NCBI RefSeq assembly: GCF_000008565.1 | Contig: NC_000958.1 | Coordinates: forward strand, 145,467 to 177,466 | Direction of reading: 5' to 3' | Length of the DNA: 32,000 bases | Source: Deinococcus radiodurans R1 = ATCC 13939 = DSM 20539 | GTDB lineage: Bacteria > Deinococcota > Deinococci > Deinococcales > Deinococcaceae | Part shown: piece after piece, positions 7,335 through 32,000 of the stretch | Layout: each line of letters starts with the position of its first letter | How positions within the stretch are numbered: the stretch's first letter is position 1 | Made by a program: the position numbers and the translations under genes | The notes under the pieces: model-generated | Databases searched by the model: none | Seen by the model: the letters and a program-made list of their open reading frames with translations, nothing else | What the model was told of the DNA's origin: nothing

Positions 7335-8656
7335 CAATGGTTCGTGCAGTTTTAGGCGGCTTTAAGTCCGAAATCCAGCGGACTGAACGGCGAATTCGCT
7401 CATTCTTCAAAGCGAGCCGAGAGGTCCAGATTGGATAAAATGACCTGGGCCAGCAGGGCGTTATACGCCCTGCGTTTCATGTCTTCGAGACTGAACACCA
7501 GATCCTGCCCGCCACCTGCCGCTCGCAGGGCCTCCAGTCGGCAAAGATTCAGGGTCAGCAGCACCACGTTCCAATGCGCCTCGATGCCCTGCTGTGACCG
7601 CAGTTGCACATCCTGGCCCCCCAGGAACTGTTTGGCATCCCGGAAGATCAGTTCGATCTCAAAGCGGCTTCGATACAGCGCCATGACCTCATGAGCCGGC
7701 ATGGTCACAGCGGTGCTGAACAGCACCGCGTAGCCGGTGACCTGACCCTTTTTACCAATCTGCTGAATGACGACTGCGCGCACTTCCCGCGCCCACTGCA
7801 CGCTCCAGACCACCTGCGTCCACACCCGCTCAGTCGGCCTTGCAGAGACGAGGTCGAAGCGCTGCAGGTCACTGAAGTCCACCTTACCGTCGAACTTCTT
7901 CTTTCGCCCCCGTCGTCTGGGATGCTCACCGGTGTAGAGGTCGTTGAGGTTGGCGTTGCGAGGCAATCTGGAGATAAACGGGAGACCGTGACCCGTCACG
8001 GTCTCCACGATGGGTTCCTTCGCGTAATTCCCGTCGGCAACGACAGCAGCCAGATCAAGCTGTTGAACAGTCCGGAGATCGAGCAGCACGTCATCCAGCT
8101 GATCGGCGGCCTGTTCCAGACGAGTTGGAGCCTCAGACCCGGTCAGGGTCTGACGGACATCGACCGTCAAGGCCTGCCGGTGCTGGACATCAATGAGGGC
8201 ACAACAGGATTGCTCGATTCCGCGTTCGGTCCGCGCGGCACAGCCATTCCAGAACGAGCCGAGGTGTGCGGTGTGCTGACCGGCTTTGCGGTGAAAAGAG
8301 GCGTCGATGGCCAGAACGCACAGTGGGCTGATCAGCCCACTCTCGATTGCTGTACTGACAGTCGCCTGGTGTAACGCGCCCCACGGAATGGCCCCATCGT
8401 CACTTCGGTGCAGCCAACGACGAATCGTACTCTCCGAGCAGGCTGCATACCGGGAGAGATTCAGGGCGTTCAGCCGTCCAGGAACAGCGAGAAAAACGCT
8501 GAGCAGCACGGTCAGGAAATTCCGCTGCGTCTTGCGCAGCGGGACCGCGCTGAGAACGTACTGTAGGATGGCCATCAGACCCATTGGAAGCGGTGATTTC
8601 ACAGCTCCATTTTCAATGGGTCTTTCCTTTTGGGCTCAAAACTGCACGAACCATTG
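7335..8656 (-). mobile_element. Complete IS element (IS4/IS701-like DDE transposase), 1322 bp, perfect 19-bp terminal inverted repeats
   Basis: CAATGGTTCGTGCAGTTTT at 7335-7353 is the exact reverse complement of AAAACTGCACGAACCATTG at 8638-8656. The repeats enclose a single transposase ORF. Confidence 0.85.
7400..8602 (-). CDS. DDE transposase (IS4/IS701-like)
   Basis: 400 aa. Candidate catalytic triad contexts are LAIDASF, VVADGNYA and YRSRFEIELIFRDAKQ. It is bounded by the 19-bp IRs. Confidence 0.85.
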   Translation of the reverse strand: MKSPLPMGLMAILQYVLSAVPLRKTQRNFLTVLLSVFLAVPGRLNALNLSRYAACSESTIRRWLHRSDDGAIPWGALHQATVSTAIESGLISPLCVLAIDASFHRKAGQHTAHLGSFWNGCAARTERGIEQSCCALIDVQHRQALTVDVRQTLTGSEAPTRLEQAADQLDDVLLDLRTVQQLDLAAVVADGNYAKEPIVETVTGHGLPFISRLPRNANLNDLYTGEHPRRRGRKKKFDGKVDFSDLQRFDLVSARPTERVWTQVVWSVQWAREVRAVVIQQIGKKGQVTGYAVLFSTAVTMPAHEVMALYRSRFEIELIFRDAKQFLGGQDVQLRSQQGIEAHWNVVLLTLNLCRLEALRAAGGGQDLVFSLEDMKRRAYNALLAQVILSNLDLSARFEE

Positions 8657-10185: not shown

Positions 10186-10310
10186 CCATGGCTCTTGAGC
10201 AGAACTGCTGCCGCTCTCCGAACTCAACGGCCTGCTCCTTGCAGACGCCGTTCGACTCCAGTCGGCGCTCTCAGTAGGTGACAACTTCGGTTCGACGTTG
10301 TCCCAGACGG

Positions 10311-10354
10311 CAAAAACCAACAGTCGGCCCCATCAAGCTTGATGGGGCCGACTG
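10311..10354 (-). terminator. Perfect 34-nt palindrome (15-bp GC-rich stem, AGCT loop) followed on the minus strand by TTGGTTTTTG; candidate rho-independent terminator
   Basis: 10321-10354 CAGTCGGCCCCATCAAGCTTGATGGGGCCGACTG equals its own reverse complement. A T-rich tail follows only on the minus strand (comp. 10311-10320). Confidence 0.5.
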
Positions 10355-10370
10355 TTCGCGGTGTCCTGAG

Positions 10371-11602
10371 AGTGTGAAATCAACAGAGGGGAGCTGCCCA
10401 GCAGGCTACCGCACTCACCGGGCACTTCAAAACGCATGCCAGTCACCTCCGCATCGATACACTCCAGCGCCTCATTGACGTCCTCCTGGCGATGATTGAC
10501 GCGAGGAGCGTCAATCATCACGACCTGAGTGCCCATATGCCGGGGATGAGTACCCCGCAGGGCAAGAAGAGACGAGCAGACCGCACCTTCCGGGATGAGC
10601 AGCTGGACAGGGGCTTTTTCATCGCTCTGCTTGTCGTCCATCTTCCACCGGGGAAGGTTTTGCTAAGTCTGGACCGCACCAATTGGGAGCACGGGGAAAC
10701 GCCCATCAACTTTCTGGTGCTTGGAGCCGTGGTTCACGGCTTCACCCTGCCGCTCATCTGGGTGCCTCTCGACCAGTCTGGGAACAGTCACACCTACGCT
10801 CGAATGTGGCTGGTGTTGAAGCTCCTTCGGGCCTGGCCAGCGAAACGCTGGCTGGGTCTGGTGGCCGATCGGGAGTTCATCGGCGCGGAATGGTTCCGCT
10901 TTCTTCGTCGTCAGGGCATCAAGAGGGCAATTCGTATCCGACAGACCGACATGCTAGACGACATGAATGGGAAAGAGTGGTTTGAGCATGTCCAGCACGG
11001 TCATTTTCACGAGATCGGCGAAAAGGTGTTCGTGTTCGGGGAGTTGATGCGGGTGGTCGCAACGAGGTCACCTGTGGGTGACCTCGTCATCATCGCCACA
11101 GATTTCAGTGCTCGGAAGACCTGGAGGCTCTACAAACAGCGCTGGTCGATTGAGTGCACCTTCAGCAGTTTCAAAAAGCGAGGCTTTGACTTAGAGCGAA
11201 CCGGAATGACGGAAAGGAGCCGTCTACAGCGACTCTTCGGACTGGTGACATTGGCTTGGATGTTCTGTTTGCGCCTGGGGGTCTGGCTGAGCCAGACCTG
11301 GCCCATCCCTGTTCTAAAGCATGGTCGGAGAGCGGTCAGTCTGGTACGGCACGGCGCTCAGCATCTCGTGGATGCCCTACGGTGGAAACCCCAACAGTTC
11401 ATGGCGATCCTGGAGGTGTTCATCCAGGCTTTTTGCCTGCCAGGAGCGGCTGAAAGTGAAGTTGTCACCTACTGAGGAAACCGGTACATTTCCACGACAC
11501 GGCTTGTCAAATGGCTCACTTCGCATTTGGTCGCCGCTTCCTTCAGGGCCAACAGCGGTGCCTTCTATGACTGAAGTGTCCAATATCCGTTTTTTTCACA
11601 CT
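10371..11602 (+). mobile_element. IS4-family element, boundaries tentative (possibly 5'-truncated)
   Basis: It contains an IS4-type transposase ORF. AGTGTGAAA at 10371-10379 is the reverse complement of TTTCACACT at 11594-11602, with partial similarity further inward. That is weak IR evidence. Confidence 0.4.
10492..11475 (+). CDS. IS4-family DDE transposase (start uncertain or N-terminally defective)
   Basis: Motifs LSLDRTNW, LVADREF and YKQRWSIECTFSSFK (Y-2-R-3-E-6-K) are present. The same frame is open for 38 more sense codons back to 10378 without any ATG/GTG/TTG, and is preceded by GTG-TGA at 10372-10377. Confidence 0.8.
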   Translation: MIDARSVNHHDLSAHMPGMSTPQGKKRRADRTFRDEQLDRGFFIALLVVHLPPGKVLLSLDRTNWEHGETPINFLVLGAVVHGFTLPLIWVPLDQSGNSHTYARMWLVLKLLRAWPAKRWLGLVADREFIGAEWFRFLRRQGIKRAIRIRQTDMLDDMNGKEWFEHVQHGHFHEIGEKVFVFGELMRVVATRSPVGDLVIIATDFSARKTWRLYKQRWSIECTFSSFKKRGFDLERTGMTERSRLQRLFGLVTLAWMFCLRLGVWLSQTWPIPVLKHGRRAVSLVRHGAQHLVDALRWKPQQFMAILEVFIQAFCLPGAAESEVVTY

Positions 11603-11706: not shown

Positions 11707-14700
11707 GTGAATATTTTCGAGTTCCGTCAGGAAGTCATCAACCAGTACGCCTCCTACGTCTCTTCCTTCGTTTATATCCGCGACCGGGACGTGCGCGCCT
11801 ATGTGGACGCACAGATGCGGAGTGGGGTCTTCTGGCCTGATCCTCTTGCGCAACTCAACCCCAACTTCACGCCGGGCGGCAGCGTCAGTGACCTTGTCAG
11901 TCAAGGGGTCCTGCACCCGGACTGCGCCGCGCTGTTTGCGGCTGGTGAGCCGCGCTCTCCCCTCAACTTGCACGCCCACCAGCGCGACGCGGCTCGGCTG
12001 GCCCGTGAGGGGCGCTCGTATGTCGTGACCACCGGTACCGGTTCGGGCAAATCACTGACCTACATCCTCCCTATCGTGGACCACGTGCTGCGCCGCGGCA
12101 GCGGCAAGGGCATCCAGGCCATCGTGGTCTACCCGATGAACGCGCTTGCCAACAGTCAGGTGGAAGAACTCAGCAAGTTCCTGGGCGACAACGGACCCGT
12201 GACTTTTCGGCGCTACACCGGCCAGGAAAAACGCGAAGAAAAAGACGCCATCATCGCCAATCCGCCGGACATCCTGCTGACCAACTACATGATGCTGGAA
12301 CTGATTCTCACCCGGCAGGACGAAGCCGCGCTGGTCCGGGCTGCTGAGGGCGTGCGCTTCGTGGTTTTTGACGAGCTTCATACCTACCGTGGGCGGCAGG
12401 GGGCAGACGTAGCGCTGCTGATTCGCCGCCTGCGCGAGAGACTAAGGGCCCCCGACGCCATTTGCGTCGGTACCAGCGCCACGATGTCGTCCAGTCCGGT
12501 GTATGCCGAGCGGCAAAGGGCTGTCGCGGACGTGGCCTCGCGGCTCTTTGGGTTGGACATGACCCCCGAGCAGGTCATCGGGGAAATGTTGGAGCGCGTG
12601 ACCTCAGGCGAGCCGGGCACCGCCGAGCTGAAAGCTGCCGTGGCCGCGCCAGTGCCGTCCACCTTTGAAACCTTTATTCGCGACGCCTTGGTGGTGTGGC
12701 TTGAAAACATGGTGGGCCTCCGGTGGGACGGCGAGGCGAAGCGCTATGACCGACAACCACCACAGGCCGTGGCGGGGGACGGGGGGCTGGCGGCGCAGCT
12801 CGCCCTGGAAACGGGCCTCCCCGTGATGCAGTGCCTGGAAGCCCTGCAAGGCCGCCTCCTCGCCGGCAACGCTCTGCAGCACCCGGCCACGGGGCGACCG
12901 GTGTTCGCGTTTCGGCTTCACCAGTTCATCAGCAAGGCGGCCACCGTCTACGCCCCGCTGCTGCCCTGCGCCGAGCGCCTGGAACACCTCACGTTGCGCG
13001 GACAGGTGTACGCCCCGGAGAGTGGGCGCACCCTGCGGCTTTACCCACTGGAGTTTTGCCGCAACTGCGGGCAGGAATACTACTCAGTGCGCCGCGTCCC
13101 TGACCCTGACACGGGCCGTGAGGTGTTCGTGGCACGCGGCAATGAGGCCCGCCAAGAAAGCACGCCGGACGACGGCTATCTCTACCTCGGGGACCCCCCC
13201 TGGCCCCTGGACGAGGAGAAGCTGCTTGAGCGCCTGCCCGACAACTGGCTGGAGGAGAAGAACGGCCAACTGCGCGTGAAGTCCAGCCGCCGTGGGCAGC
13301 TCCCACGTACCGTGCGGGTGAGTGGTCTGGGTGAAGTGGGCCAAGCGGAAAGAGTCCGCGCCGCATTCATAGAAGGCGAATTCCGCTTCTGCTTGTGCTG
13401 CGGCGTGAGTTATCTGGGCCGCACCGGCAAGCTGACCAAGCTTGCCACCCTGTCGAGCGAGGGGCGCTCCACGGCCACGACGCTGCTCAGCATGGCGGCG
13501 GTGCAGGGGCTGAGAAAGTCCGACCTGCGGGACACCGCCCGCAAGATTCTGTCGTTTACGGACAACCGTCAAGACGCCTCTTTGCAGGCCGGGCACTTCA
13601 ACGATTTCGTGTTCGTGGCCTCGCTGCGCGCCGCGTTGGCGCGGGCGCTTAAGGCAAGCCCACTCACGCTCGAAGACGTAGCCCAGAAGGTGTTTGCAGC
13701 GTTAGAGCTGGACCTCGCTGCGTTCGCCAGCGACCCCAACGTGCGCTTCGGCGAGCGCGACCGCACCCTCAAGACGGCCCACAACCTGATTGGCTACGCG
13801 CTCTATGCCGACCTTGCTGAAGGCCGCCGCCTGACCCTGCCCAACCTCGAAGGCGTGGACCTTGTGCGCTTCGAGTACCCCTACCTGCGAGAGGTTTGCG
13901 AAGCCCAAGACCTCTGGGAGCGGGCCCATCCGGCCCTGTCGGTGGTGCGCAGCGGCGTGGTCGAGGCGCGTGAGCGTGCCGCGCGGGCGCTGCTTGACTG
14001 GCTGCGGCAAAACCTCGCCATCAAGGCGCCTTACCTCGATCCCGACTATCTGGGCGCTGTGGTGCTGAACCTGGGCCTGATCCGCGAGGACAGCCCCCTG
14101 TCCCTACCGCCCGAAGAGGCGCAGAACCTCACCACAGCGCGGCGAGTGGTACTGGGCACGCTGCCACGCGACGAGGGACGCTCCACCGGGCGACTCTCTT
14201 TGAGCGCCCAGGGGGCTGTTGGCCGCTACCTGACGCGCCCGGAAACGCTCGCCTGGAGCCAGGCCCTGAAGCGCGACGATGTGGACGCCATCTTGCATGA
14301 CCTCTTGCTGGCCCTCTCTGAGTTCATCGAGCAGGTGGAGCCGGGCGCCTACCAACTCAAGGGAACCAGTTTCACTTGGCACGCCGGGCCGGGCACCGAG
14401 CCGTCCGTGGACGCCTTGCGGGTGCTGCGTCCCGCGGGCAGCGAAGCGCCGCGCGTCAACTCGTTTTTCCTCTCGCTCTACCAGCAGCCCGCCGCCGAGT
14501 TTCGTGACCTTCACGGCGCCGAACACACCGCGCAGATTCGCGCTGAGGAACGCGAGAAGCGTGAAGAAGCCTTCCGCGCCGGCACCCTCCCCGCGCTGTT
14601 TTGCTCGCCCACCATGGAACTGGGCGTGGATATCAGCGACCTGAATGTGGTGCACCTGCGCAACGTGCCGCCCACCCCGGCCAACTACGCGCAGCGCTCC

Positions 14701-16827
14701 GGGCGTGCTGGGCGCAGCGGGCAGCCCGCACTGGTGATGACCTACGCCACCACCGGTAACAACCATGACCAGTATTTCTTCCGGCGCCCGGGGCTCATGG
14801 TGGGCGGCAGCGTCTCTACCCCGCGGCTAGAACTGGGCAACGAGGCGCTGGTCAGGTCGCATGTGCACGCCATCTGGCTGGCCGAGACCGGCCAGAAGTT
14901 GCCGCCTTCGGTGGCCGAGCTGCTTGACGTGAATGGTGAAGACCCCACTCTGGCGCTGCTGCCGGACTTCCAGCATCCGTTTCAGGATGAGGGCGTACAA
15001 AAGCGCACTCTGATTCGGGCACGGCAGCTCATCGCTGGTCTGGGCGTGGACCTCACAGGGACCGGGTGGTACAGCGAGGAATGGCTCACTTACACCGTCA
15101 AACACGCCGCCCGTGAGTTTGACCGGGCCTGCGACCGCTGGCGTGACCTTTACCGCAGCGCCCTCTCGCAGCTTCACCTCAACAACGCCGTGCTGGCCGA
15201 CGCGGGCAAACGCCACCTTCAGGAACAGGCGCGCCGCCTGCACGCTGAGGCGAACACGCAGCTCAGCTTGCTGCGCAGTCCTGAAGGCGAGCTGTCGGAC
15301 TTTTACACCTACCGCTACTTGGCTTCTGAGGGCTTCTTACCGGGATACAACTTCGCGCGTCTGCCCCTCTCGGCTTACATACCCGGACGGCGCGGCGCGA
15401 AGGCAGGAAGGGACAGCTACCTCTCGCGGCCCCGCTTTCTGGCGCTCTCTGAGTTCGGGCCAAACGCCATCGTCTATCACAACGGCGCGAAGTACGAGGC
15501 CCACAAAGTCATCGTGCCGGCCCGCGGTGAAACCAGTGAACTGCCCACAGTGAGTGCCCAGCGCTGTGAGCAGTGCGGCTACCTTCACCATGGCAGCGGC
15601 GACGTTCAGGGCGATCAGGGTGCCCGCGACGTGTGCGAGAACTGTCAGGCCCAGCTCGCGCCCCCGCGCCCGGACCTCTTCCGCATGACCTCAGTGGCGA
15701 CCCGCCGCCGCGAGCGCATCAGCAGTGACGAAGAAGAGCGGCGCCGGATCGGCTTTGACGTCAAGAGCGGCATGCGCTTCGCTTCGCGCGGGGGGCGGGC
15801 CGACCGCGTGCAGGCGCTGGCAGCCACCGACGCGCCGCTGCTGCGCCTGACTTACGGCGACGGCGCGACGCTCTGGCGCATCAACTATGGCTGGCGCAAC
15901 CGCGAAAACAAGCAGGAACTCGGCTTTCTCTTTGACCCCGAGACCTCACAGTGGCTCAGCAAGCAGGGGCACGAACGGAAGCTCAAGGCCGCCGGAGGAC
16001 GGGACGTGGCCGTGCAGCGAGTGATTCCCTATGTGGAAGACACCCGCAATGTGCTGCTGATTGAGCCGGCCCTTCCTCTGGATGCGGGCGGCATGGCTAC
16101 GCTGATGAGCGCTCTCAAAAACGCTGCGCAGCTCACCTACCAGCTGGAGGACAGTGAGCTCGCGGCCGAGTTGCTGCCCGACAGCCAGGAGCCGCGCCAA
16201 ATTCTGCTGTACGAAGCGTCCGAAGGCGGGGCCGGCGTACTGCAAGATTTGGTGTTCCGCTCGGGGGCGCTGGGTGAAGTGGCCGCCGCGGCGCTGGGCC
16301 TGCTGCACTTTGACCCCCTGACGGGCGAGGATCACGGGCACGCCCCCCACGCGGCGGAGCGCTGCGAAGCGGCCTGCTACGACTGTCTGATGACTTATGG
16401 CAACCAGACGTTTCATGACCTGCTTGACCGCTTCGCCGTGCGCGAACTGCTGCTGCGACTGCGTGAGGCGCGGGTCACCTTGCCCGGTGACGCAGGCGAC
16501 CCTTTTGAGACCCTCTGCGCGGCGTGCGGCAGTGAACTGGAGCGCGAATGGTTGCGCTTTGTGCGGGATGAGGGCCGGCGTCTGCCGTCACACGCGCAAC
16601 TGCTCGTGCCGGACCACTACGCCCGCCCGGACTTCGCGTACGCCGAGCAGGCGGCCCTGATCTTCATCGACGGGCCCCACCACGACCAGCCTGGTCAGAC
16701 AGGCCGCGACGCCCGACTGCGCGAAGAGTTGGAGTTTGCCGGGTATACCGTCGTGCCCTTTACGCATGACCGCAGCACCTGGCCGGCGCAACTTGCCCGC
16801 TACGCATTCATTTTCGGGGAAGGATAA
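11707..16827 (+). CDS. Large DEXH-box helicase fused to a DUF1998-type Zn-binding region and a C-terminal Vsr/DUF559-like endonuclease domain (DrmA+DrmB-like / DruE-like)
   Basis: 1706 aa with a GTG start.
- Helicase motifs: GTGSGKS (12031-12054), DELH (12370-12381), [19 protein letters not shown].
- CxxC...CxxC insert: 13057-13068 and 13390-13401.
- DUF1998-like region: [22 protein letters not shown] (15565-15644), [23 protein letters not shown].
- C-terminus: [12 protein letters not shown]...RPDFAY...LIFIDGPHH...[12 protein letters not shown], which resembles DUF559/Vsr-fold nucleases. Confidence 0.9.
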
Positions 16828-16829
16828 CT

Positions 16830-19655
16830 ATGACGTTTGATATCGGTTCAATGGTGCGTGCCCGTGGGCGCGACTGGGTGGTGCTGCCTGAAAGCGGCGC
16901 GGACTTCCTGCTGCTGCGTCCCCTGGGCGGCAGCGACGCAGAAATCGCGGGCGTGTACGCCGGGGAGGGTGGGGAGGAGGTCACCTCGGCAGCGTTCGCC
17001 CCCCCGAGCCCCGCGGCCTTCGGGACCGCGAGTGGAGCGCGGCTGCTGCTGAACGCGGCCCGGCTGGCGGTGCGCAGCGGCGCTGGGCCCTTCCGGTCCC
17101 TGAGCCGCCTGGGCGTGGAGCCGCGCCCGTACCAGCTGGTGCCGCTCCTCATGGCCCTGCGCCAGAGCCCGGCCCGGCTGATGATCGCCGACGACGTGGG
17201 CATCGGGAAGACGGTGGAAGCCGCCTTAATCGCCCGCGAGCTGCTGGACCGGGGCGAGATCGACCGCCTGACGGTCCTGTGCCCACCGCACCTGGCGGGA
17301 CAGTGGGTGGAGGAATTGCGGGTCAAGTTCGGCATCGACGCGGTGGCCGTGCTGCCCGGCACCGCCCGGCGCCTGGAAAAGGGCTGTAACCCTGGCCAGA
17401 GCGTCTTTGAGCGCTACAAATTCACGGTGGTCAGTCTCGACCTCGTGAAGTCGGACCGGTGGCGGCAGGACTTTCTGACCAATGCGCCCGATTTCGTCAT
17501 CGTGGACGAGGCGCACGCCAGTGCTGAGGGCGAGGGCATGGGCACCAAGCGCCACCAACGCTACCGGCTGCTCGAAGACCTCGCCAGGAAGGAAGACCGG
17601 CACCTGATTCTGGTCACCGCCACGCCCCACAGCGGCAAGGAAGACGCCTTCCGCAGCCTGCTGCGGCTGCTCAATCCCGACTTCGCCAGGCTGCCACTCG
17701 ACCTCAGCGGGGCGCAAAACGAGCGTGCCCGCGCGACCCTGGCCCGGCACCTCGTGCAGCGCGGGCGTAAGGACATCGCAGAGTACCTGCAGGAAGACAC
17801 TCCTTTTCCAACCCGGCGCGACGCCGAGCTGCACTACGCCTTGCACCCGGACTACGCCGCCCTCTTTGACGACGTGCTGGCCTACGCCCGCGAGAGTGTC
17901 CACGTGCCCGGCGAGGCCCAGAGCCGCACCCGCATTCGCTGGTGGGCGGCGCTGGGGCTGCTGCGGGCGCTGGCGAGTAGTCCGCAGGCCGCCGCCGCCA
18001 CCCTGCGCGAGCGGGCCATAGCGGCGGACGACGGAGAGACCGACGAAGCGGTGATCGACCGGCTGGGCCGCGAGCTGGTGCTTGACCCCGAAGAGGGCGA
18101 GGACAGTGCCCTGGACATGACTCCTGGGGCTCAGGTGGACGGTGAGCAGAGTGAAACCACCGGGCGGCTGCTGACGCTGGCGAGCCGGGCCGACGCCCTG
18201 GCCGGGGCCAAGGACAACAAACTGAAGCTGCTGACGGCGCAGGTGCAGGGGCTCGTCGATCAGGGATTTGCGCCCATTGTGTTTTGCCGCTTTATTGCCA
18301 CCGCAGAGGCCGTGGCCGAGCACCTCCGGGGGGCCCTGAAAGGCAGCGAAGTGCTGGCGGTCACCGGACGTCACACGCCCGACGAGCGGGTGGACCGGGT
18401 GGAAGAGCTCGCCCGCGCTGAGCGGCGGGTGCTGGTGGCGACCGACTGCCTCTCTGAGGGCATCAACCTGCAGGCGGCTTTCAGCGCTGTGATCCACTAC
18501 GACCTGCCCTGGAACCCCACCCGACTCGACCAGCGCGAAGGCCGGGTCGACCGCTACGGGCAGGCCAGCCCCGAGGTGCGGGTGCTGACCATCTACGGCG
18601 AGGACAACCGCATTGACACCCTGATTCTGGAGGTGCTGGTGCGCAAGCACCGCTTGATTCGCGCCACGCTCGGCACCAGTGTGCCGGCGCCGGAAGAGGC
18701 CGAGAGCCTGCTCGACGTGCTGCTCAGCCGGGTGCTGAACGCGCAGGGGCGCGAAGTGATTCAGCCGCTGCTCTTTGAGGACGTGCAGGCCTTTGACCTC
18801 AAGTGGCGCGACGCCGCCGAAGGGGAAAAGAAATCGCGCAGCCGCTTTGCCCAGAACAGCATCCGCCCCGAAGAAGTGGCGAGCGAGTTGCGGGCAGTCC
18901 GTGAAGCGCTAGGGGACGCGCACGCGGCGCAAGACTTTGTGCTCGACGCTCTGAGTGGAGCCGGCGTGAGTGTTTCACCGCGTGTGGACGGCAGCTTCGA
19001 GGCCGACCCCGCGCAGGCGGACGTGAGGCCCGAGTACCGCGATTTCCTGCGTGGGGCGCGGCGTTTTCGCTTCGACGCCCAGACTGAGCGCGGCGTGACC
19101 CCGCTTGCCCGCAACCACCCCCTCGTGGAGCAGCTCGCCAGTACGGTGCTGGGGCAGGCGCTCGACGCTCCGCTGGAGGCGGCGGCCAAACGGGTGGGCG
19201 TGATTCGCACCTCCAAGGTTGCCACGCAGACCACGCTGCTGCTGCTGCGTCACCGCTTTCACCTCACGGGGCGCAAGGGCAACCGGACGTGGCAGACGCT
19301 GGCTGAGGAACTCGACCTGCTCGCCTACGCGGGGCGGGCACCGGCGGACGGGAAAGGCGGCTGGCTGGACGCCGAAGCCACCCGCGCCCTGCTCGCCCTG
19401 ACGCCCGAAGGCAACCTCGACCCGGTGCAAAAAGAAGACCGCTTGACCCGCGTTCTGGCCGACGTTCAGGGCCTGGACGGGCCCCTGATGGCCCGCGCTC
19501 AGGAGCGCGCCGCCGCGCTGCTGGAGGCGCACGAGCGGGTGCGTGGGGCCGCGCGCGGGCAGGGCGTGACCTACAGCGTGGAACCGCCCGGCCCCCCAGA
19601 CCTGCTCGGCATTTACGTCTTCCTGCCCCTGCCCAAACTTGGAGCCCTGTCTTGA
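16830..19655 (+). CDS. SNF2-family helicase (DrmD-like)
   Basis: 941 aa. Motifs DDVGIGKT (17190-17213), DEAH (17505-17516), TATPHSG, and helicase-C [12 protein letters not shown]...[22 protein letters not shown]. It starts 2 nt after the preceding stop, with GGAAGGA as RBS. Confidence 0.9.
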
Positions 19656-22264
19656 CCACCCAACTACATCATGTCCGCCTGCACGGCCTGGGCCTGACCG
19701 ACGATTTTCTGCTGCAACTTTCCGACCGCGCCCAGACGGGCAAGGTCGAGGGGGCCACTCCCGCCAGCTACGACCTGCCCCCCAAGACCAGTCTGGAAGA
19801 AGCCATTCAGGACGCCTGGGACGACGCCCGCAAAGCGTGGGCGAAATACCAGCAGCACGGCACCGACGCCTGGGCTGGATGGGTGCGGCCTCTGCTGCGC
19901 GCGCTGGACTACAACTTCGTGGGGGGCGGCGCGGCGGGCGGCAAATACGCCGTGGGCCACCTCACGGAAACCGGGGACGTGCCGCTGCATTTCACCCGGC
20001 AGCCGGACCTTGACCGCGTGACCGACGAAACCGGGCTGCGCGTCAGTCCGCACGGCCTGATGCAGGGCTACCTGAACGCGACGCCGGAGCATCTGTGGGG
20101 CCTCGTGACCAACGGCGAGACGCTGCGGCTGCTGCGCGACAACGCCCAGGTGACGCGCCCGGCCTACGCCGAGTTCCAGATTGGCGAGATGCTGCGCACC
20201 GAGGACGCCCGCGCCTTCCGGGTGCTGTGGCTGCTGCTCCACCGCACCCGGCTGCGCGGCGGCAAGGTGGGGCCGCTGGAAGCCTGGAACGAGGCGAGCA
20301 AGGTGCTCGGCCAGCGCGCCAACGACACCCTGCGCGACGGGGTACAGCTCGCCATCGAGCACCTCGGGACCGGCTTTTTGCGGCACAACCCGGAGCTGCT
20401 GGAGCGCACGCGCAGCGGCGAAGTCAAGGCCGAGGACCTCTACCGCGCGGCCCTGACCACCGTGTATCAGATGGTGTTCCTGTTCGTCACCGAGGACCGC
20501 GACCTGCTGTTTGCGCGGGATGAAGACGGCGAATACCTTCCCGACGCGCAGACCCGCGCCCGCGCCGCGCACTACCTGACCCGCGCCCTGCGGCAGAAAG
20601 CCGGCAGCGTAAACGGCAACCCGCTGCACCACGACGCTTACGTGGCCTGGGAGCGGCTGCTGGGCTACCTGCGCGGCGGCTTTGCCCCGCTGGGCCTGCC
20701 GGCGCTGGGCAGCCTGCTGTTTCAGCCGACCCTGCTCAGTGGCCTGAAACTCGGCAACGACGCTTTTTACGGCGCCGTGCGCGCCCTGAGCGAAATCAGC
20801 GTGAACGGCAGCCTGCGTCCGGTGAACTACGCGGGCCTGGACTCCGAGGAGCTGGGCAGCATCTACGAGAGCCTGCTGGAACTGGTGCCCCGCATCGAGC
20901 CGGGGCCCCGCTTCTCGCTGACCGTGCTGCCCGGCAATGAGCGCAAAAGCACCGGCAGTTACTACACGCCGGGCAGCCTGATTGACCTGCTGCTGGACAG
21001 CGCCCTTGACCCGGTGATCGAAGACGCCGTACGTGACAAGCTCCCGGAAGACGCCATCGCCGCGCTTAAAGGTCTCAAGGTGATCGACCCGGCGTGCGGC
21101 TCGGGGCACTTCCTGATTGCCGCCGCCCGCCGCATTGGAGCGCGGCTGGCCGAACTGGAAGAGGAAACCAGCCTCCCCAGCCCCCGCGCCCTGCGAAAAG
21201 CCACCCGCACCGTCATCGCCCACTGCATCTACGGGGCGGACATCAACCCCATGGCGATTGAGCTGGCCAAAGTCGCCCTGTGGCTCGAAAGCCAGGACGC
21301 GGGCCGGCCCCTGGCCTTCCTCGACCACCGCCTGCGCGTGGGCAACAGCCTGCTGGGCGCCACGCCCGAGCTGATGAACGCCGAGGACGAGATTCCCGAA
21401 AAGACCGTGCGCGGCGTGACCAGCCGGGCCGTCAGGGCCCATACCCTTCACCTGCCCGACGAAGCGTTCAGCGCCATTTAAGGTGACGACAAGAAAACCG
21501 TCTCGGAGCTGAAAAAGCGCAACAAGGCCGAGCGTGAGGCCCTGATTCGCGCTGCCAAAGGCGAACAGAGCCTGTTCGACGTGTCCGGCGACCTCGCGCC
21601 CCTCACGGCAATGGTGCGGGCGCTGGACAAAATCGAACCCGACAGCGCCGAGCACGTGCAGGCGCAGCAGAGTACCTACCACGCCATTCGCCAGAACGCC
21701 CGCTTGCAGGAGCAGCAGCGCCTGGCCGACGCCTGGTGCGCCGCCTTCGTCGCCCCCAAGACCCCCGGCCAACCCGCGCTAACCACCGCCACGCTGCACG
21801 CCCTGAAACGCACGCCGGACGCCCCCGCCCTGCAACCCGTGCGGCAACTGGTGAGCGACGTGGCCGCGCAGTACGCCTTCCTGCATCCGCACATCGAGTT
21901 TCCCGACGTGTTCGGAGACGCGCAAAAAGGTGGCTTCGACTGCGTGCTGGGCAACCCACCGTGGGAACACACGGAATTGAAGGAAAAAGAGTGGTTTGCG
22001 CCGCGAAAACCAGAAATTGCCGACGCCGCCACCGGAGCACTCCGCAAGAAAATGATTGAAGGACTGGCCGAGAATGACCCAAAGCTCTACGCCGACTTCC
22101 TGTTCGCCCGGCGTGAAGCAGACGCCGTGAGTCATTTCGTTTCGGCCAGCGGGCGCTATCCACTGACGGCGCGGGGGCGCATTAACACCTACGCGATTTT
22201 CAGCGAGCTTTGCCGAAACAGTCTCAATCCTTGCGGACGCCTGGGCATCATCGTGCCGACGGGC

Positions 22265-22303
<39 letters not shown>

Positions 22304-22510
22304 TTGATGGACAAAAAGTCGTTGGTGAGCCTGTACGACTTTGAGAACCGCGAAGGCATTTTCCCTGGCGTACACCGCTCATTCAAGTTCTGCATGTTGA
22401 CAGCCAGCGGCGAGAAGCGTCCCAACAATGCCGCGCAGTTCGCTTTCTTTGCCCTGAATGCCGACGAAGCCCGCGACCCCGGCAAGGTGTTCAGCCTCTC
22501 CCCTGCCGAA

Positions 22511-22563
<53 letters not shown>

Positions 22564-23165
22564 TGACGCGGCCATTACGAAGGGCATTTACCAGCGCGTA
22601 CCCGTACTGCTCAATGAGGCGACGGGAGAGAATCCCTGGGGCATCAGCTTCAAGCAAGGGCTGTTCAATATGACCAGCGATTCCGGCCTGTTTCGCACCG
22701 CCGCGCAACTGGACGCCGAGGGCTGGACGCTGGACGGCAACCGCTACCGCAAAGGCCCGGCGCAGATGCTTCCTCTGTACGAAGCCAAGCTAATGCACCA
22801 GTTTGACCACCGCTTCGCCACCTACACCGAGAATGGTGAGACGCGGGACATAACCAGCGCGGAAAAGGCTGACCCGGATTGCTTGCCGTTGCCGCGGTAC
22901 TGGGTAGCAGAAGCGGAAGTAGAAGACCGCCTGATTCAGAAAGATAAAAACGGGCGCGTGACTTGGGAATGGACTCGGGATTGGTTGATGGGCTTTCGGG
23001 ATATAGCACGGGTCACAGATGAGCGAACAGCGATTTTTGGCCTTTTTCCACCCTATGGCTCGGGAAACACAATGCCATTTATGTTTTCTGGCACTTCGGC
23101 ACTAGCTGCGTCAGCCTTGTTTATTGACTCCGGCACGACTTGGAGACGCGAGGTAAACTTAGGAG

Positions 23166-23651
23166 GTGCTGCGCGTCTGGCGACCCTCCACTTTGACTCG
23201 TGACCAGCTGGAAGAACGACGGCTGTATGCTCAGCAGCTCCTCGCCGCAGGTGAGGTCAATGCCAAGGAGATCGCGGCTTCGGTCGGCGTTTCCGAAAGT
23301 ACAGTCCGCACCTGGAAACAGCGTCTCCGAGAACGAGGCAGCCTCCAGGCCACCCGAGCGGCTGGGCCTTCACCGCGCCTGAGGCCAGAACAGCGCACGC
23401 AACTGGGGGAGATCCTGCGCGCAGGACCGCTGGCCGCCGGTTATCCCGACGCGCGTTGGACGACCTCCCGCGTGCGGGAGGTCATTGGCCTGCAATTTGA
23501 GGTGTGGTACCACGCCGATCACGTCAGGAAGTTGCTTCACCAGCTTGGCTTCAGTCCTCAGAAGCCAGAATCGCGTGCCTTGGAACGCGATGAGCAGGCG
23601 GTTCAGACCTGGGTCGAGCAGACGCTCCCCAGCTTGAAAAAAAAAGGTTGA
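23166..23651 (+). CDS. IS630 transposase, N-terminal HTH part (orfA)
   Basis: 161 aa with a helix-turn-helix or winged-helix pattern typical of IS630 ([21 protein letters not shown]; [10 protein letters not shown]...[19 protein letters not shown]). It ends just after an A9 tract. Confidence 0.85.
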
Positions 23652-23658
23652 GCAGGGT

Positions 23659-24177
<519 letters not shown>

Positions 24178-24489
24178 GCCGGAGTCAATAGTGACATGAA
24201 TAGTTATGTCTTGGATTACAGTGCACGTCAGAAAGTCGGCGGTACACATCTGACTTACAACTACCTCAAGCAATTCCCCGTCCTCCCACCCTCCGTCTTC
24301 AACCCTTCCCGCCTTGCCTTCATTACGCCGCGTGTGCTGGAGCTGACGTACACGGCCCACGACCTGTCCGGCTTTGCCCGTGACCTCGGCTACGCGGGCG
24401 AGCCGTTTACCTGGGATGACGAACGCCGCTTCTGGCTGCGGGCCGAACTGGACGCGCTGTATTTCCTGCTGTACGGCATTGAGCGCCCG

Positions 24490-24525
<36 letters not shown>

Positions 24526-24729
24526 AAGCGCAAGGACGTGGCAGCGCACGGAAGCTACCGCACGAAGGAAGCGATTCTGAGCGTGTACGACGAGCTGACG
24601 GCGCTGGGGCTGGAGCGCCTGCACGAGTACGCCAGCCGTGTACCGGGCGGTGCGGTGGCGGGCGGCTGGGGGCCTGAATGAGTTCATTACGTAGCACTTG
24701 TCAGGATTCTGGTACTATCTGGTGGTACC

Positions 24730-24996
24730 ATGACTAAGGTGAGTGGCAGACATCAACGGACGTTAGAGCAGATTTTTGCCCGTCCGATCTCTGGCACCAT
24801 TCATTGGGACGCGATAGAAAAGTTACTTGTTCACCTGGGAGCAGAAATCAGTGAGGGAAGTGGTTCACGGGTTCGTATCAGCCTTCGTGGGGTACGCGCC
24901 GTGTTTCATCGCCCTCATCCCCAGCCCACAACCGATAAAGGGGCCGTGAATGATGTCAGGAAACTTTTAGAAAACGCCGGTATACGTCCTGAATAA
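24730..24996 (+). CDS. hicA: HicA-family toxin (type II TA)
   Basis: 88 aa. The pattern RHQRTLEQIFARP..I.W.AIEKLL..LGAEISEGSGSRVRISL.G....FHRPHP....DKGAVNDVRKLLENAGI matches my recollection of the HicA/YcfA-like toxin family. It sits immediately upstream of a HicB-like gene. Confidence 0.75.
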   Translation: MTKVSGRHQRTLEQIFARPISGTIHWDAIEKLLVHLGAEISEGSGSRVRISLRGVRAVFHRPHPQPTTDKGAVNDVRKLLENAGIRPE

Positions 24997-25035
24997 TTAG
25001 TAGAAGCAATGGCATCATTTGCAAGGAAAACCAAG

Positions 25036-25542
25036 ATGACGACTTTAGAATATCGAGGCTATATAGGTAGCGTGACCTTTGATGCGGAAGCGGAAATTCT
25101 GCATGGCACGGTAGTCAACACCCGTGACGTCATTACCTTTCAGGGCGAGAGTGTCTCTGAGATCAAGCAGGCTTTTAAAGAGAGTGTAGAAGATTATCTG
25201 GCTTTCTGTGCCGAGCTGGGCGAGGAACCAGAAAAACCTATGAGTGGTAAATTTAATGTCAGGATTTCGCCTTTGCTCCACGCCCAGGCAGTTGCAATGG
25301 CACAGTCGCAAGAAATCAGCCTCAATACGTTGGTCGAACGCGCTATAAACGATGTGGTAAACCGCTCAGCTTCTGTGGATGCTCAGTCAGCTCAAGACCA
25401 CCAACCGAATACGGACGAAGAGTGTGATAGCGACAGGGAAATATATGATGTTGCTATACATTGGAGCGGCACAAGACTTGCAAAGGCATCGTCTGTCATG
25501 ACGTCTATGCAGCAATCTCTTGAAGTTCGGGTAACGAACTGA
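25036..25542 (+). CDS. hicB: HicB-family antitoxin with RHH-type DNA-binding region and a ~59-aa C-terminal extension
   Basis: LEYRGYIGSVTFDAEAEILHGTVVNTRDVITFQGESVSEIKQAFKESVEDYLAFCAELGEEPEKPMSGKFNVRISPLLH...SLNTLVERAI is the COG4226/HicB pattern. I prefer ATG 25036, with AAGGA about 8 nt upstream, over the ORF-track start at 25009. Confidence 0.85.
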   Translation: MTTLEYRGYIGSVTFDAEAEILHGTVVNTRDVITFQGESVSEIKQAFKESVEDYLAFCAELGEEPEKPMSGKFNVRISPLLHAQAVAMAQSQEISLNTLVERAINDVVNRSASVDAQSAQDHQPNTDEECDSDREIYDVAIHWSGTRLAKASSVMTSMQQSLEVRVTN

Positions 25543-31878: not shown

Positions 31879-31893
31879 CTCTTCTTCCTGAGG

Positions 31894-31938
31894 TGTTGTT
31901 GTTTTTAAATACTTAAAAGATATAAAAGAACAACAACA
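31894..31938. repeat. 10-bp perfect inverted repeat (TGTTGTTGTT / AACAACAACA) flanking a 25-nt fully A/T-rich spacer, immediately upstream of repA
   Basis: 31894-31903 is the reverse complement of 31929-31938. The spacer is TTTAAATACTTAAAAGATATAAAAG. This is the most AT-rich spot in the window. Confidence 0.5.
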
Positions 31939-32000
31939 AGGACGGCTTCTCTCGTCGTGCTGGACGAACATTTTCGACTTTTTCCCGCAAAGGTGTCGCT

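What the first reader, a model, noticed from the sequence alone, without database searches (positions are those of the whole stretch)
11707..16827. 1706-aa single-chain helicase + Zn-ribbon insert + DUF1998 + Vsr-like endonuclease
Seen, in order along the protein:
- RecA1 motifs (GTGSGKS, DELH, SAT);
- a roughly 300-aa insert carrying CRNC (13057-13068) and CLCC (13390-13401), which looks like a 4-Cys zinc ribbon;
- an [18 protein letters not shown] segment;
- RecA2 motifs ([16 protein letters not shown]);
- DUF1998-like elements ([14 protein letters not shown]; CEQC..CENC; [15 protein letters not shown]);
- a terminal ~100 aa, [38 protein letters not shown], typical of DUF559/Vsr-fold PD-(D/E)xK nucleases.

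Inference: sensing or translocation and DNA cleavage are united in one protein. That would make a separate DrmC-like nuclease unnecessary.
Basis: partly seen in the sequence, partly recalled or inferred. Interest (0 to 1): 0.7.

Follow-up and report, generated by a model that had tools for sequence, protein, structure and literature searches.

The report
Known ARMADA Type I helicase-nuclease

Summary
ORF 11707-16827 encodes a 1706-aa YprA/MrfA-family SF2 helicase with conserved RecA1 and RecA2 motifs, invariant CxxC pairs, a DUF1998/MZB domain and a C-terminal Vsr/DUF559-fold nuclease domain. The putative catalytic residues D1642, D1655, H1659 and D1668 are kept in at least 110 of 120 homologues.

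It is followed by an SNF2 helicase and a PglX-like N6-adenine methyltransferase. That three-gene order held in every related locus with enough flanking DNA (74/74 and 51/51).

This is the published ARMADA Type I architecture (Bell et al. 2025, PMC12458937). Their Table S1 lists this very protein (DR_B0135, AAF12564.1).

Only Type II has been tested experimentally in the papers I read. No nuclease activity has been shown for any ArmC.

In this strain the methyltransferase is a pseudogene, with a GAA-to-TAA nonsense codon and an ISDra3 insertion, so the cassette is probably crippled.

Verdict: real, correctly interpreted, already known. Interest is low.

The parts
11707..16827 (+). armC-like gene (DR_B0135, AAF12564.1 / WP_010883981.1): 1706-aa YprA-family helicase-nuclease of an ARMADA Type I cassette
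   Evidence: ORF. It is 100% identical to AAF12564.1. That accession is listed as 'ARMADA Type I helicase' in Table S1 of PMC12458937.
11977..12492 (+). RecA1 core (Pfam DEAD, residues 91-262), with Walker A GTGSGKS at 12034-12054, DELH at 12370-12381 and SAT at 12475-12483
   Evidence: Pfam E-value 1.6e-28. The motifs are conserved in 116-120 of 120 homologues. PDB sequence hits to MrfA/YprA (6znp) and to DruE-type chains.
12574..13536 (+). Insertion 1 (about residues 290-610): a helical domain, then a beta-rich Zn-binding module carrying C451/C454 (13057-13068) and C562/C565 (13390-13401)
   Evidence: The four Cys are 120/120 conserved. The AF2 model shows helices at 305-389 and strands at 446-564. 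The family profile aligns this stretch, including both CxxC pairs, collinearly to the PDB chain 9wae_A, deposited as 'Helicase' and assumed here to be DruE-type. Bell et al. call these the BrxA-like domain and the beta-barrel ZBM. My fold search could not confirm the BrxA-like assignment.
13555..13608 (+). [18 protein letters not shown]: first conserved strand and helix of RecA2 (motif IV region)
   Evidence: 109-120 of 120 conserved. It aligns to 'FTDSRQ' and 'FSDSRQDAAAQA' of the DruE-type PDB chains.
13654..14496 (+). Insertion 2 inside RecA2 (about residues 650-930), called MarR-like by Bell et al.
   Evidence: AF2 model with pLDDT mostly 85-97 in this stretch. No significant PDB fold or sequence hit. 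The domain name is taken from PMC12458937 and was not confirmed here.
14512..14721 (+). RecA2 C-terminal half (Pfam Helicase_C, residues 936-1005), with TMELGVDI and QRSGRAGR
   Evidence: Pfam E-value 6.6e-14. The motifs are 93-120 of 120 conserved.
15313..16476 (+). OB-CON-DUF1998 'canopy' module (about residues 1203-1590). It contains an inserted Zn ribbon C1287/C1290/C1310/C1313 (15565-15645) and the MZB/DUF1998 domain (16105-16389) with C1553/C1557/C1560 and invariant H1534
   Evidence: Pfam MZB E-value 5.7e-9. Cysteine conservation. The module name comes from MrfA work as summarised in PMC12458937.
16492..16827 (+). C-terminal Vsr/DUF559-fold PD-(D/E)xK nuclease domain (residues 1596-1706). 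Putative catalytic residues: D1642 (16630-16632), D1655 (16669-16671), H1659 (16681-16683) and D1668 (16708-16710)
   Evidence: These give DUF559 hits in 35/36 homologues, Vsr-fold PDB chains as the top profile hits, an AF2 model with pLDDT 92.4, and best Foldseek hit 3r3p_B.
16830..19655 (+). SNF2/RapA-like helicase (DR_B0136; the ArmA / DrmD / BrxHII-like partner), 941 aa, intact
   Evidence: Pfam SNF2-rel_dom plus Helicase_C. NCBIfam DrmD scores 312 bits, below the 610-bit cutoff. PADLOC DpdE/DrmD models match. An SNF2 gene follows the helicase in 74/74 loci.
19652..23089 (+). PglX/DrmMI-like N6-adenine methyltransferase (ArmB-like), N-terminal roughly 1140 codons. It is interrupted by an in-frame TAA at 21479-21481
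   Evidence: Pfam N6_Mtase, MmeI_Mtase and Eco57I. A single-frame tblastn alignment to the intact 1309-aa orthologue of L008 places the stop opposite E601.
23122..24190 (+). ISDra3 (IS630-like) inserted in the methyltransferase gene
   Evidence: 27-nt terminal inverted repeats. HTH_33 plus DDE_3 transposase domains. RefSeq annotates it as ISDra3.
24184..24681 (+). Detached C-terminal roughly 165 codons of the methyltransferase, annotated as 'hypothetical protein'
   Evidence: tblastn gives 77% identity to residues 1146-1309 of the L008 methyltransferase. Annotation.

Best explanation
The gene is DR_B0135 of the D. radiodurans R1 megaplasmid MP1. It is the ArmC-type YprA-family helicase-nuclease of an ARMADA Type I anti-phage cassette: helicase-nuclease, then an SNF2/RapA-like helicase, then a PglX-like m6A methyltransferase.

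Shown here:
- the domain architecture
- the conserved Zn ligands and ATPase motifs
- a Vsr/DUF559-fold C-terminal domain with conserved Asp/Asp/His/Asp
- the three-gene order, conserved in every related locus with enough flanking DNA
- the listing of this protein by name in the ARMADA paper

Inferred from relatives (MrfA, DrmAB, DruE, ARMADA Type II):
- The RecA core is an ATP-driven ssDNA translocase or helicase that loads at ssDNA or ss/dsDNA junctions of invading or replicating phage DNA.
- The Zn modules and the OB-CON-DUF1998 canopy grip and select the substrate.
- The fused Vsr-like domain cuts the DNA being threaded, so no separate DrmC-type nuclease gene is needed.
- The SNF2 motor and the methyltransferase supply self/non-self discrimination or licensing.
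- Defence is direct and non-abortive.

In strain R1 the methyltransferase carries a nonsense codon and an ISDra3 insertion. All components, including the methyltransferase NPPW motif, were needed in ARMADA Type II. This copy is therefore probably inactive or a decaying remnant.
For: Identity:
- 100% match to AAF12564.1.
- The window is MP1.
- Table S1 of PMC12458937 lists DR_B0135 as an ARMADA Type I helicase.

Architecture:
- Pfam DEAD, Helicase_C and MZB.
- Invariant motifs and Cys.
- Collinear profile match to DruE-type chains 9tu7_Y (4.5e-69) and 9wae_A (1.7e-45), which includes the CxxC module, and to MrfA 6znp (3.1e-35).

Nuclease domain:
-.
- Conservation: D1642 118/120, D1655 117/120, H1659 110/120, D1668 115/120.
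- The motif is kept in 75 of 80 genome loci by a strict pattern.

Cassette:
- Ten loci fetched via individual homologues, all with SNF2 and then a methyltransferase after the helicase.
- 74/74 and 51/51 of the 80 genome loci, which span many bacterial groups.
- No UvrD/ArmD gene in the window, hence Type I and not Type II.

Mechanistic analogies:
- ARMADA Type II is non-abortive and needs all four genes and their catalytic motifs.
- DruE is a helicase-coupled nuclease acting at 5'-overhang junctions and a 3'-to-5' helicase.

Methyltransferase lesions:
-.
- SMRT sequencing of R1 found no 6mA motif (PMC6712171).
Against: - No biochemical or genetic test of any ARMADA Type I system, or of any ArmC nuclease domain, appears in the papers I read. 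Only Type II was tested.
- The query's own DUF559 score is just under Pfam's cutoff (20.5 vs 20.6 bits), and the PDB profile E-values are about 0.1.
- Nine Deinococcus-clade orthologues among the 120 homologues (eight lack the conserved His or second Asp, and P0027 has Asn for the first Asp and a deletion at the His), plus a second D. marmoris copy (L009), have a degenerate motif. Five of these were checked for context and keep the full cassette. The nuclease may therefore be dispensable.
- In the related DISARM and Druantia III-A systems, the PLD nucleases were dispensable in some assays.
- Translocation polarity differs between relatives: DrmAB is reported 5'-to-3', DruE 3'-to-5'. ArmC's polarity is not predictable.
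- My fold search could not confirm the BrxA-like and MarR-like assignments.
Confidence: 0.8

Rival explanations
1. The Vsr-like domain is not the effector nuclease. It would be catalytically silent or serve only as a DNA-binding or protein-docking module. Restriction would then be done by helicase-driven displacement or by a partner nuclease, such as the McrC encoded downstream in much of the Deinococcus clade.
For: - Eight Deinococcus-clade orthologues among the 120 homologues have lost the conserved His and/or second Asp, a ninth (P0027) has the first Asp replaced by Asn, and a second D. marmoris copy (L009) is also degenerate.
- All five degenerate-motif loci that were checked keep the cassette and have an orthologous McrB just downstream.
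- Druantia I/II DruE carry inactivated Vsr domains.
- PLD nucleases are dispensable in some DISARM and Druantia III-A assays.
- The query scores marginally below the DUF559 cutoff.
Against: - Outside that subclade, Asp/Asp/His/Asp are kept in about 110 of 120 homologues and in 75 of 80 genome loci. This argues for selection on catalysis.
- The R1 protein itself has the full motif.
- McrBC of this type is next to only 1 of 41 non-selected loci.
Confidence: 0.2
2. It is a Druantia system component (DruE), as the best PADLOC models suggest.
For: - The best PADLOC hits are DruE models (1.2e-88).
- The best PDB sequence relatives are two large helicase chains, deposited as 'DEAD/DEAH box helicase' and 'Helicase', which I take to be DruE.
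- The shared Zn-module insert.
Against: - The matches cover only parts of the models, for example 937-1319 of the protein.
- No DruH, DruA-D or DruM/F/G gene is present. The neighbours are SNF2 plus a methyltransferase.
- PADLOC-DB 2.0.0 (2023) predates ARMADA.
- The authors' tree places this accession in ARMADA Type I.
Confidence: 0.03
3. It is a DISARM class 1 variant in which DrmA, DrmB and a nuclease have fused.
For: - The neighbours resemble DrmD and DrmMI.
- The fused-DrmABC analogy is used in the literature.
Against: - NCBIfam DrmA scores 12.8 bits against a cutoff of 950, and DrmD scores 312 against 610.
- There is no PLD DrmC.
- The helicase is much closer to DruE than to DrmA.
- The clade has been separated and named ARMADA.
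Confidence: 0.04
4. It is a DNA-repair helicase of the MrfA/YprA kind that contributes to the DNA-damage tolerance of D. radiodurans. On this view the helicase and the SNF2 gene are kept intact because of a housekeeping role, despite loss of the methyltransferase.
For: - The YprA family includes the repair helicase MrfA.
- The helicase and SNF2 ORFs are intact while the methyltransferase is broken.
- DR_B0136 is transcribed and responds to loss of 4mC methylation.
Against: - There is no MrfB-type exonuclease partner.
- The gene sits on a megaplasmid between IS elements, a HicAB-SecB-like module and McrBC.
- Orthologues are patchily spread over many phyla and always sit in the methyltransferase-containing cassette.
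- Some R1 assemblies carry the helicase in fragments.
Confidence: 0.04

Closest known systems
ARMADA Type I (ArmC-like helicase, BrxHII/RapA-like helicase, PglX-like methyltransferase); Bell et al. 2025, PMC12458937
   Same: - Everything tested matches: the YprA core, the CxxC Zn module inserted before RecA2, a second insertion in RecA2, OB-CON-DUF1998 with one extra Zn ribbon, and a C-terminal Vsr-type nuclease with catalytic residues.
- The gene order is helicase first, then SNF2, then methyltransferase.
- This accession is in the authors' Type I list.
   Different: - In strain R1 the methyltransferase is a pseudogene (nonsense codon plus ISDra3).
- An ISDra1 element sits 231 bp upstream of the helicase.
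- The Deinococcus clade has Leu instead of Cys at position 1533 next to the DUF1998 cluster.
ARMADA Type II ArmC (E. coli NCTC 12900 / EDL933), experimentally validated
   Same: - The same helicase family and insert architecture, and a Vsr-type nuclease at the C-terminus.
- The same SNF2 and PglX-like partners.
- Defence is direct and non-abortive, and needs the ATPase and methyltransferase motifs.
   Different: - In Type II the gene order is SNF2, methyltransferase, helicase, then a fourth gene, ArmD (a GajB-like UvrD helicase with a RelE-like domain).
- Type II ArmC often has extra inactive EEP and Vsr domains.
- None of this is present here.
Druantia DruE (Type III; assumed to be the chains in PDB 9tu7 and 9wae, which are deposited as 'DEAD/DEAH box helicase' and 'Helicase')
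   Same: - It is the closest solved relative.
- There are collinear matches over RecA1, the CxxC module, the FTDNRQD strand, RecA2, the canopy and the DUF1998 Cys cluster.
- DruE is a helicase-coupled nuclease that acts at ssDNA junctions.
   Different: - DruE carries PLD-type rather than Vsr-type nuclease domains.
- It works with DruH.
- It has no SNF2 or methyltransferase partners.
DISARM class 1 (DrmA, DrmB, DrmC, DrmD, DrmMI)
   Same: The functional parts list is the same: a YprA-type helicase, DUF1998, a nuclease, an SNF2 helicase and an m6A methyltransferase.
   Different: - Here helicase, DUF1998 and nuclease form one chain.
- The nuclease is of the Vsr fold, not PLD.
- There is no N-terminal EVE-like domain or trigger loop.
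- The NCBIfam DISARM models score far below their cutoffs.
Vsr / DUF559 (PF04480) nucleases, e.g. E. coli Vsr (1vsr, 1cw0), 3hrl, I-Bth0305I (3r3p)
   Same: - The fold is the same.
- The 'RPDF' Asp aligns with the 'GRPDF' Asp of Vsr.
- The motifs 'DGxxH' and 'RD' align as in DUF559 and Vsr.
   Different: - The domain is fused to a 1600-aa helicase.
- It has an Asp where Vsr has His64, which is the DUF559-type motif.
- Sequence similarity is weak (15-20 bits).

Membership tests
ARMADA Type I | YprA-family SF2 helicase core with a DUF1998/MZB zinc domain in one polypeptide | tested here: met
   Pfam DEAD, Helicase_C and MZB. PDB hits to MrfA/YprA 6znp. Cys1553/1557/1560 are 119/120 conserved.
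ARMADA Type I | Beta-barrel Zn-binding module with at least two conserved CxxC motifs, inserted before RecA2 and shared with Druantia | tested here: met
   C451/C454/C562/C565 are 120/120 conserved. The AF2 model is beta-rich here. The stretch aligns to the two CxxC pairs of the 9wae_A helicase chain, assumed to be DruE.
ARMADA Type I | BrxA-like helical domain after RecA1 and MarR-like domain inside RecA2 | tested here: inconclusive
ARMADA Type I | C-terminal Vsr-type PD-(D/E)xK nuclease domain with catalytic residues present | tested here: met
   for the fold and family. D1642, D1655, H1659 and D1668 are present and conserved.
ARMADA Type I | Gene order: YprA-like helicase, then BrxHII/RapA-like SNF2 helicase, then PglX-like methyltransferase | tested here: met
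   Window ORFs. The same order in 10 fetched loci and in 74/74 and 51/51 genome loci. In this strain the methyltransferase is a pseudogene.
ARMADA Type I | No ArmD (GajB-like UvrD helicase with a RelE-like domain), which defines Type II | tested here: met
   No UvrD-like match anywhere in the window. The downstream ORFs are ISDra3, HicA, HicB, a SecB-like gene, McrB and McrC.
ARMADA Type I | Placement in the Type I clade of the YprA tree | not tested
   I built no tree. The authors' Table S1 lists DR_B0135 / AAF12564.1 as an ARMADA Type I helicase.
ARMADA Type I | Confers anti-phage defence | not testable with these tools
   Only Type II was tested in the papers I read. The R1 copy has a broken methyltransferase.
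Druantia | DruE accompanied by DruH (Type III), DruA-D (Type I) or DruM/F/G (Type II) | tested here: not met
   The neighbours are an SNF2 helicase and an N6-methyltransferase. PADLOC reports no Druantia partner model for any neighbour.
DISARM class 1 | Separate DrmA helicase and DrmB (DUF1998) genes, plus the PLD nuclease DrmC | tested here: not met
   Helicase and DUF1998 are in a single chain. NCBIfam DrmA scores 12.8 bits against a cutoff of 950. No PLD domain was found in the window ORFs scanned.
DISARM class 1 | DrmD SNF2 helicase and DrmMI methyltransferase | tested here: inconclusive
   The proteins are related but score below the cutoff: DrmD 312 bits against 610. PADLOC DrmMI gives 1.7e-65 over part of the model.
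Vsr / DUF559 nuclease fold | Vsr-like alpha/beta fold with the conserved Asp of the 'PD' motif and a downstream 'DGxxH' (DUF559) or 'HGxxxxH' (Vsr) motif | tested here: met
   Foldseek hit 3r3p_B with probability 1.0. The profile alignment to 1vsr, 1cw0 and 3hrl covers RPDF, DGxxH and RD. DUF559 hits in 35/36 homologues, while the query itself scores 20.5 against a gathering cutoff of 20.6.
MrfAB (YprA/MrfA DNA repair) | Association with, or fusion to, the MrfB/YprB 3'-5' exonuclease, with no methyltransferase cassette | tested here: not met
   No exonuclease partner was found. The conserved partners are SNF2 and a methyltransferase.

The most novel reading that the evidence does not exclude
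In the Deinococcus clade, the ARMADA Type I cassette may have become functionally merged with a co-inherited McrBC module.

The helicase's own Vsr site decays in some orthologues. All five orthologues with a degenerate motif whose neighbourhood I could read keep an orthologous McrB immediately downstream. In D. radiopugnans the methyltransferase and McrB reading frames overlap. Among the Vsr-intact orthologues, only 2 of 5 have McrB downstream.

McrC would then supply the cleavage. This would be an evolutionary intermediate towards Druantia I/II (Type IV CoCoNuT), where DruE carries an inactive Vsr domain next to McrB-like partners.

A second, less likely reading is that the intact helicase and SNF2 pair of strain R1 has been co-opted for genome maintenance after the methyltransferase was lost.
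Probability: 0.1. Interest if true: 0.45.

Novelty: already known. Interest (0 to 1): 0.15.

Why it matters
As a finding it mainly shows that reading raw sequence can recover a real multi-domain defence protein. The architecture, the fused-DrmABC interpretation and this exact locus tag are already published (PMC12458937; PMC13463889).

What remains open is mechanistic and applies to the whole family:
- Does the Vsr-like domain cut DNA, and on what substrate?
- How do the SNF2 motor and the methyltransferase license it?

The R1 locus adds one small practical point. It is a natural methyltransferase-null ARMADA cassette with an intact helicase-nuclease. This fits the absence of a 6mA motif in R1 methylomes. 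It could serve as a genetic background for reconstitution experiments.

Tried and rejected
- Foldseek of the 796-residue model of the insert region (residues 265-1060) against the PDB returned only RecA2 fragments at E of 0.1 or more. It returned no BrxA, MarR or DruE match. The DruE entries seem to postdate that library.
- phmmer of the insert alone against PDB sequences gave no hits. Only the family profile reached DruE.
- The search for related loci with the 111-residue nuclease alignment failed because it had no conserved 7-10 column stretch. It worked with a 267-residue alignment.
- I did not accept the PADLOC labels (DruE for the helicase, DpdE at 769 bits for the SNF2 gene). PADLOC-DB 2.0.0 dates from 2023 and has no ARMADA models. 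NCBIfam DpdE, DpdJ, DrmA and DrmD all score below their cutoffs.
- A general ARMADA-McrBC linkage of the window's McrB type was checked and rejected outside Deinococcus, where it occurred in 1 of 41 loci. The broader association of 'DISARM-like' cassettes with McrBC is already published anyway.
- The Vsr-decay versus McrBC correlation rests on 10 related loci (5/5 versus 2/5). It is not phylogenetically independent, so I treat it as a lead only.
- I could not map the REBASE names ORF14075P and ORF15360P in PMC6712171 to this methyltransferase.

Full report
**Observation**

It spans 11707-16827 on the + strand, starts with GTG, and encodes 1706 codons without interruption.

Pfam finds three domains:
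- DEAD at residues 91-262, E-value 1.6e-28
- Helicase_C at 936-1005, E-value 6.6e-14
- The MrfA Zn-binding domain MZB/DUF1998 at 1467-1561, E-value 5.7e-9

I aligned 120 homologues that reach down to 47% identity.
- GTGSGKS, DELH and SAT
- The [18 protein letters not shown] stretch, which is 109-120 of 120 conserved at every position
- TMELGVDI and QRSGRAGR
- [14 protein letters not shown]

C451/C454 and C562/C565 are invariant (C564 is not). So are C1287/C1290/C1310/C1313. C1553/C1557/C1560 are 119/120 conserved. This is far beyond chance.

**Corrections to the anatomy**

The extra material is not a single 300-aa insert.
- About 350 residues lie between RecA1 and the FTDNRQD strand, which is the start of RecA2.
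- An AlphaFold2 model of residues 265-1060 (pLDDT 79.5) shows a helical domain at 305-389 there. A beta-rich domain at 446-564 follows and carries the two CxxC pairs.
- A second insertion of about 300 residues sits inside RecA2, at roughly 650-930.

Neither insertion has a detectable solved relative by fold search or single-sequence search. A profile of the family does align collinearly to two large helicase chains in the PDB, which I take to be DruE: 9tu7_Y at 4.5e-69 and 9wae_A at 1.7e-45. That alignment includes both CxxC pairs and the FTDNRQD motif. The profile also matches MrfA/YprA 6znp at 3.1e-35.

**C-terminal domain**

Both pass.
- Alone, the last 111-139 residues score 19.9-20.5 bits on DUF559 (PF04480), a hair under the 20.6-bit gathering cutoff.
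- 35 of 36 diverse homologous C-termini hit DUF559, the best at 4.4e-9. Eighteen also hit the restriction-enzyme-like MTES_1575 family.
- A profile of the domain ranks only Vsr-fold chains as its five best PDB matches: 3hrl, 1vsr, 1cw0, 1odg and 3r3p. It aligns RPDF to the GRPDF of Vsr, and aligns the DGxxH and RD motifs.
- An AlphaFold2 model has pLDDT 92.4. Its best Foldseek hit is the Vsr-like catalytic domain of I-Bth0305I, with probability 1.0 and TM 0.62/0.69.
- D1642, D1655, H1659 and D1668 are conserved in 118, 117, 110 and 115 of 120 homologues.
- In a scan of 1.84 billion representative proteins, the full-length hits among the best 150 carry the domain at or near the C-terminus of roughly 1700-1800-aa proteins. 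Most of the other listed hits are much shorter proteins, probably gene fragments.

**Context**

The window is the megaplasmid MP1 of Deinococcus radiodurans R1. The protein is AAF12564.1 / Q9RZJ2.

Immediately downstream lie two genes:
- A 941-aa SNF2/RapA-like helicase at 16830-19655.
- A PglX/DrmMI-like N6-adenine methyltransferase.

The same order (helicase-nuclease, SNF2, methyltransferase of 1241-1375 aa) occurs in all ten loci I fetched through individual homologues. I also fetched 80 genome loci spanning many bacterial groups. Among them:
- SNF2 follows in 74/74 loci with enough downstream DNA.
- The methyltransferase follows in 51/51.
- The SNF2 gene starts a median 27 nt after the helicase gene.

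**What it is**

This is the ARMADA Type I system defined by Bell et al. (bioRxiv 2025, PMC12458937). Their description has the following parts:
- A YprA-like helicase with a BrxA-like insert, a beta-barrel Zn module with CxxC motifs and a MarR-like insert.
- An OB-CON-DUF1998 canopy with one extra Zn module.
- A 'predicted active Vsr-type nuclease' at the C-terminus.
- This helicase is followed by a BrxHII/RapA-like helicase and a PglX-like methyltransferase.

Their Table S1 lists 'ARMADA Type I helicase, Deinococcus radiodurans R1, AE001826.1, DR_B0135, AAF12564.1'. The window has no UvrD/ArmD gene, which would define Type II.

The PADLOC labels DruE and DpdE are nearest-model artefacts of a 2023 library. 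NCBIfam models for DrmA, DrmD, DpdE and DpdJ all score far below their cutoffs.

**How it most likely works**

Shown here:
- Intact ATPase and helicase motifs.
- Conserved Zn ligands.
- A conserved Vsr-type active site.
- An obligate three-gene cassette.

Inferred from relatives:
- MrfA and DruE are ssDNA-loading helicases.
- DruE is a helicase-coupled nuclease acting at duplex-ssDNA junctions. It is reported as a 3'-to-5' helicase.
- DrmAB recognises 5' overhangs.
- ARMADA Type II protects directly, without abortive infection. It needs all four genes, the Walker motifs of its helicases (only partly so for the ArmD Walker B motif), and the NPPW motif of the methyltransferase.

I therefore take ArmC to be a translocase that threads phage DNA past its own Vsr-like nuclease. 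The SNF2 motor and the methyltransferase would provide licensing or self-marking.

None of this has been shown biochemically for ArmC, and Type I has not been tested in the papers I read.

**State of the R1 copy**

The methyltransferase is a pseudogene with two lesions:
- An in-frame TAA at 21479-21481 aligns with Glu601 (a GAA-to-TAA change would give this stop) of the intact 1309-aa orthologue in the closest relative.
- An IS630-like ISDra3 element, with 27-nt inverted repeats at 23122-23148 and 24164-24190, splits off the last roughly 165 codons. RefSeq annotates those codons as a hypothetical protein.

The fully matching R1 megaplasmid records carry the same sequence. SMRT sequencing of R1 found no 6mA motif (PMC6712171), which is consistent.

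Because Type II needs its methyltransferase for defence, the R1 cassette is probably inactive. That is an inference from Type II to Type I.

**Side observations in the Deinococcus clade**

Nine of the 120 homologues, all from the Deinococcus clade, have a degenerate Vsr motif: eight have lost the conserved His and/or second Asp, and P0027 has Asn for the first Asp and a deletion at the His. A second D. marmoris copy (L009) is also degenerate.
- The five degenerate-motif loci I could inspect all keep the cassette, and all have an orthologous McrB just downstream.
- Among Vsr-intact orthologues, 2 of 5 have McrB downstream.
- With ten related loci this is only a lead.
- The general association of 'DISARM-like' YprA cassettes with McrBC is already in print.
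- Outside Deinococcus, this McrB type is adjacent in 1 of 41 loci.

**Verdict**

The object is a named, catalogued member of a published family, so its novelty is 'already known' and its interest is low. The remaining value lies in the untested biochemistry of the ArmC nuclease, and in the R1 locus as a natural methyltransferase-null cassette.

Noticed in passing
window 19652-24681: The ArmB-like N6-adenine methyltransferase is a pseudogene in strain R1. An in-frame TAA at 21479-21481 sits opposite Glu601 of the intact orthologue. An ISDra3 insertion at 23122-24190 detaches the last roughly 165 codons, which continue at 24184-24681 and are annotated 'hypothetical'. This fits the published absence of a 6mA motif in R1 methylomes (PMC6712171).
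   Followed up: yes
window 24730-26099: HicA toxin (24730-24996), HicB antitoxin (25009-25542) and a SecB-like protein (25542-26099, weak Pfam hit at E 4.9e-4) lie in a row. The arrangement looks like a toxin-antitoxin-chaperone (TAC) module, sitting between the ARMADA cassette and McrBC.
   Followed up: partly
window 26096-30333; L003, L004, L008, L009, L089, L090: A long McrB (969 aa) and McrC lie downstream. Orthologous McrB genes follow the methyltransferase in 7 of the 10 Deinococcus-clade loci whose downstream DNA could be read. In D. radiopugnans the reading frames overlap. All 5 loci whose helicase has a degenerate Vsr motif have this McrB. An McrBC association with 'DISARM-like' cassettes is already reported (PMC11090510).
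   Followed up: partly
homologues P0009, P0012-P0017, P0020, P0027; L009: The Vsr catalytic motif (PDF...DGxxH) is degenerate in a subset of Deinococcus-clade orthologues, although the three-gene cassette stays intact. One example is FVDGAADD in D. wulumuqiensis.
   Followed up: partly
L001 15499-17559; L031, L063, L084, L088: A variant cassette has a UvrD-like helicase gene inserted between the ArmC-like gene and the SNF2 gene. In L001 the ArmC-like protein is 1833 aa, about 110 residues longer than most homologues (the extension is C-terminal in other such long variants, e.g. P0201). This is reminiscent of ArmD in Type II, but in the Type I gene order.
   Followed up: no
window 10270-11476 and 7400-8602: ISDra1 (IS4-like), with inverted repeats at 10270-10316 and 11430-11476, ends 231 bp upstream of the helicase start and may have displaced its promoter. 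A second IS4-like element (ISDra7) lies at 7400-8602 on the minus strand.
   Followed up: partly
residue 1533-1534 (window 16303-16308): Next to the DUF1998 Cys cluster, position 1533 is Cys in 93 of 120 homologues. It is never Cys in the Deinococcus-clade members, where it is Leu in 25 and Thr or Met in one each. The neighbouring His1534 is invariant. The fourth Zn ligand of this cluster is therefore unclear.
   Followed up: no
cluster of P0001: Some D. radiodurans assemblies carry DR_B0135 split into fragments of 1380+339, 1183 and 1140 aa. These are either long-read assembly frameshifts or real lesions in laboratory lineages.
   Followed up: no
window 30778-31971 (-): A replication initiator protein A (RPA family) gene lies next to the defence island, which is consistent with the plasmid origin region of MP1. 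The closest relative, L008, also has an RPA-family gene, directly upstream of its ARMADA cassette.
   Followed up: no
L005 23422-25115; L091 23525-24583: In Deinococcus loci without McrBC, other defence-like genes follow the cassette. These are a Piwi-domain (pAgo-like) gene in L005, and an M78 peptidase plus a faint PLD-like gene in L091.
   Followed up: no
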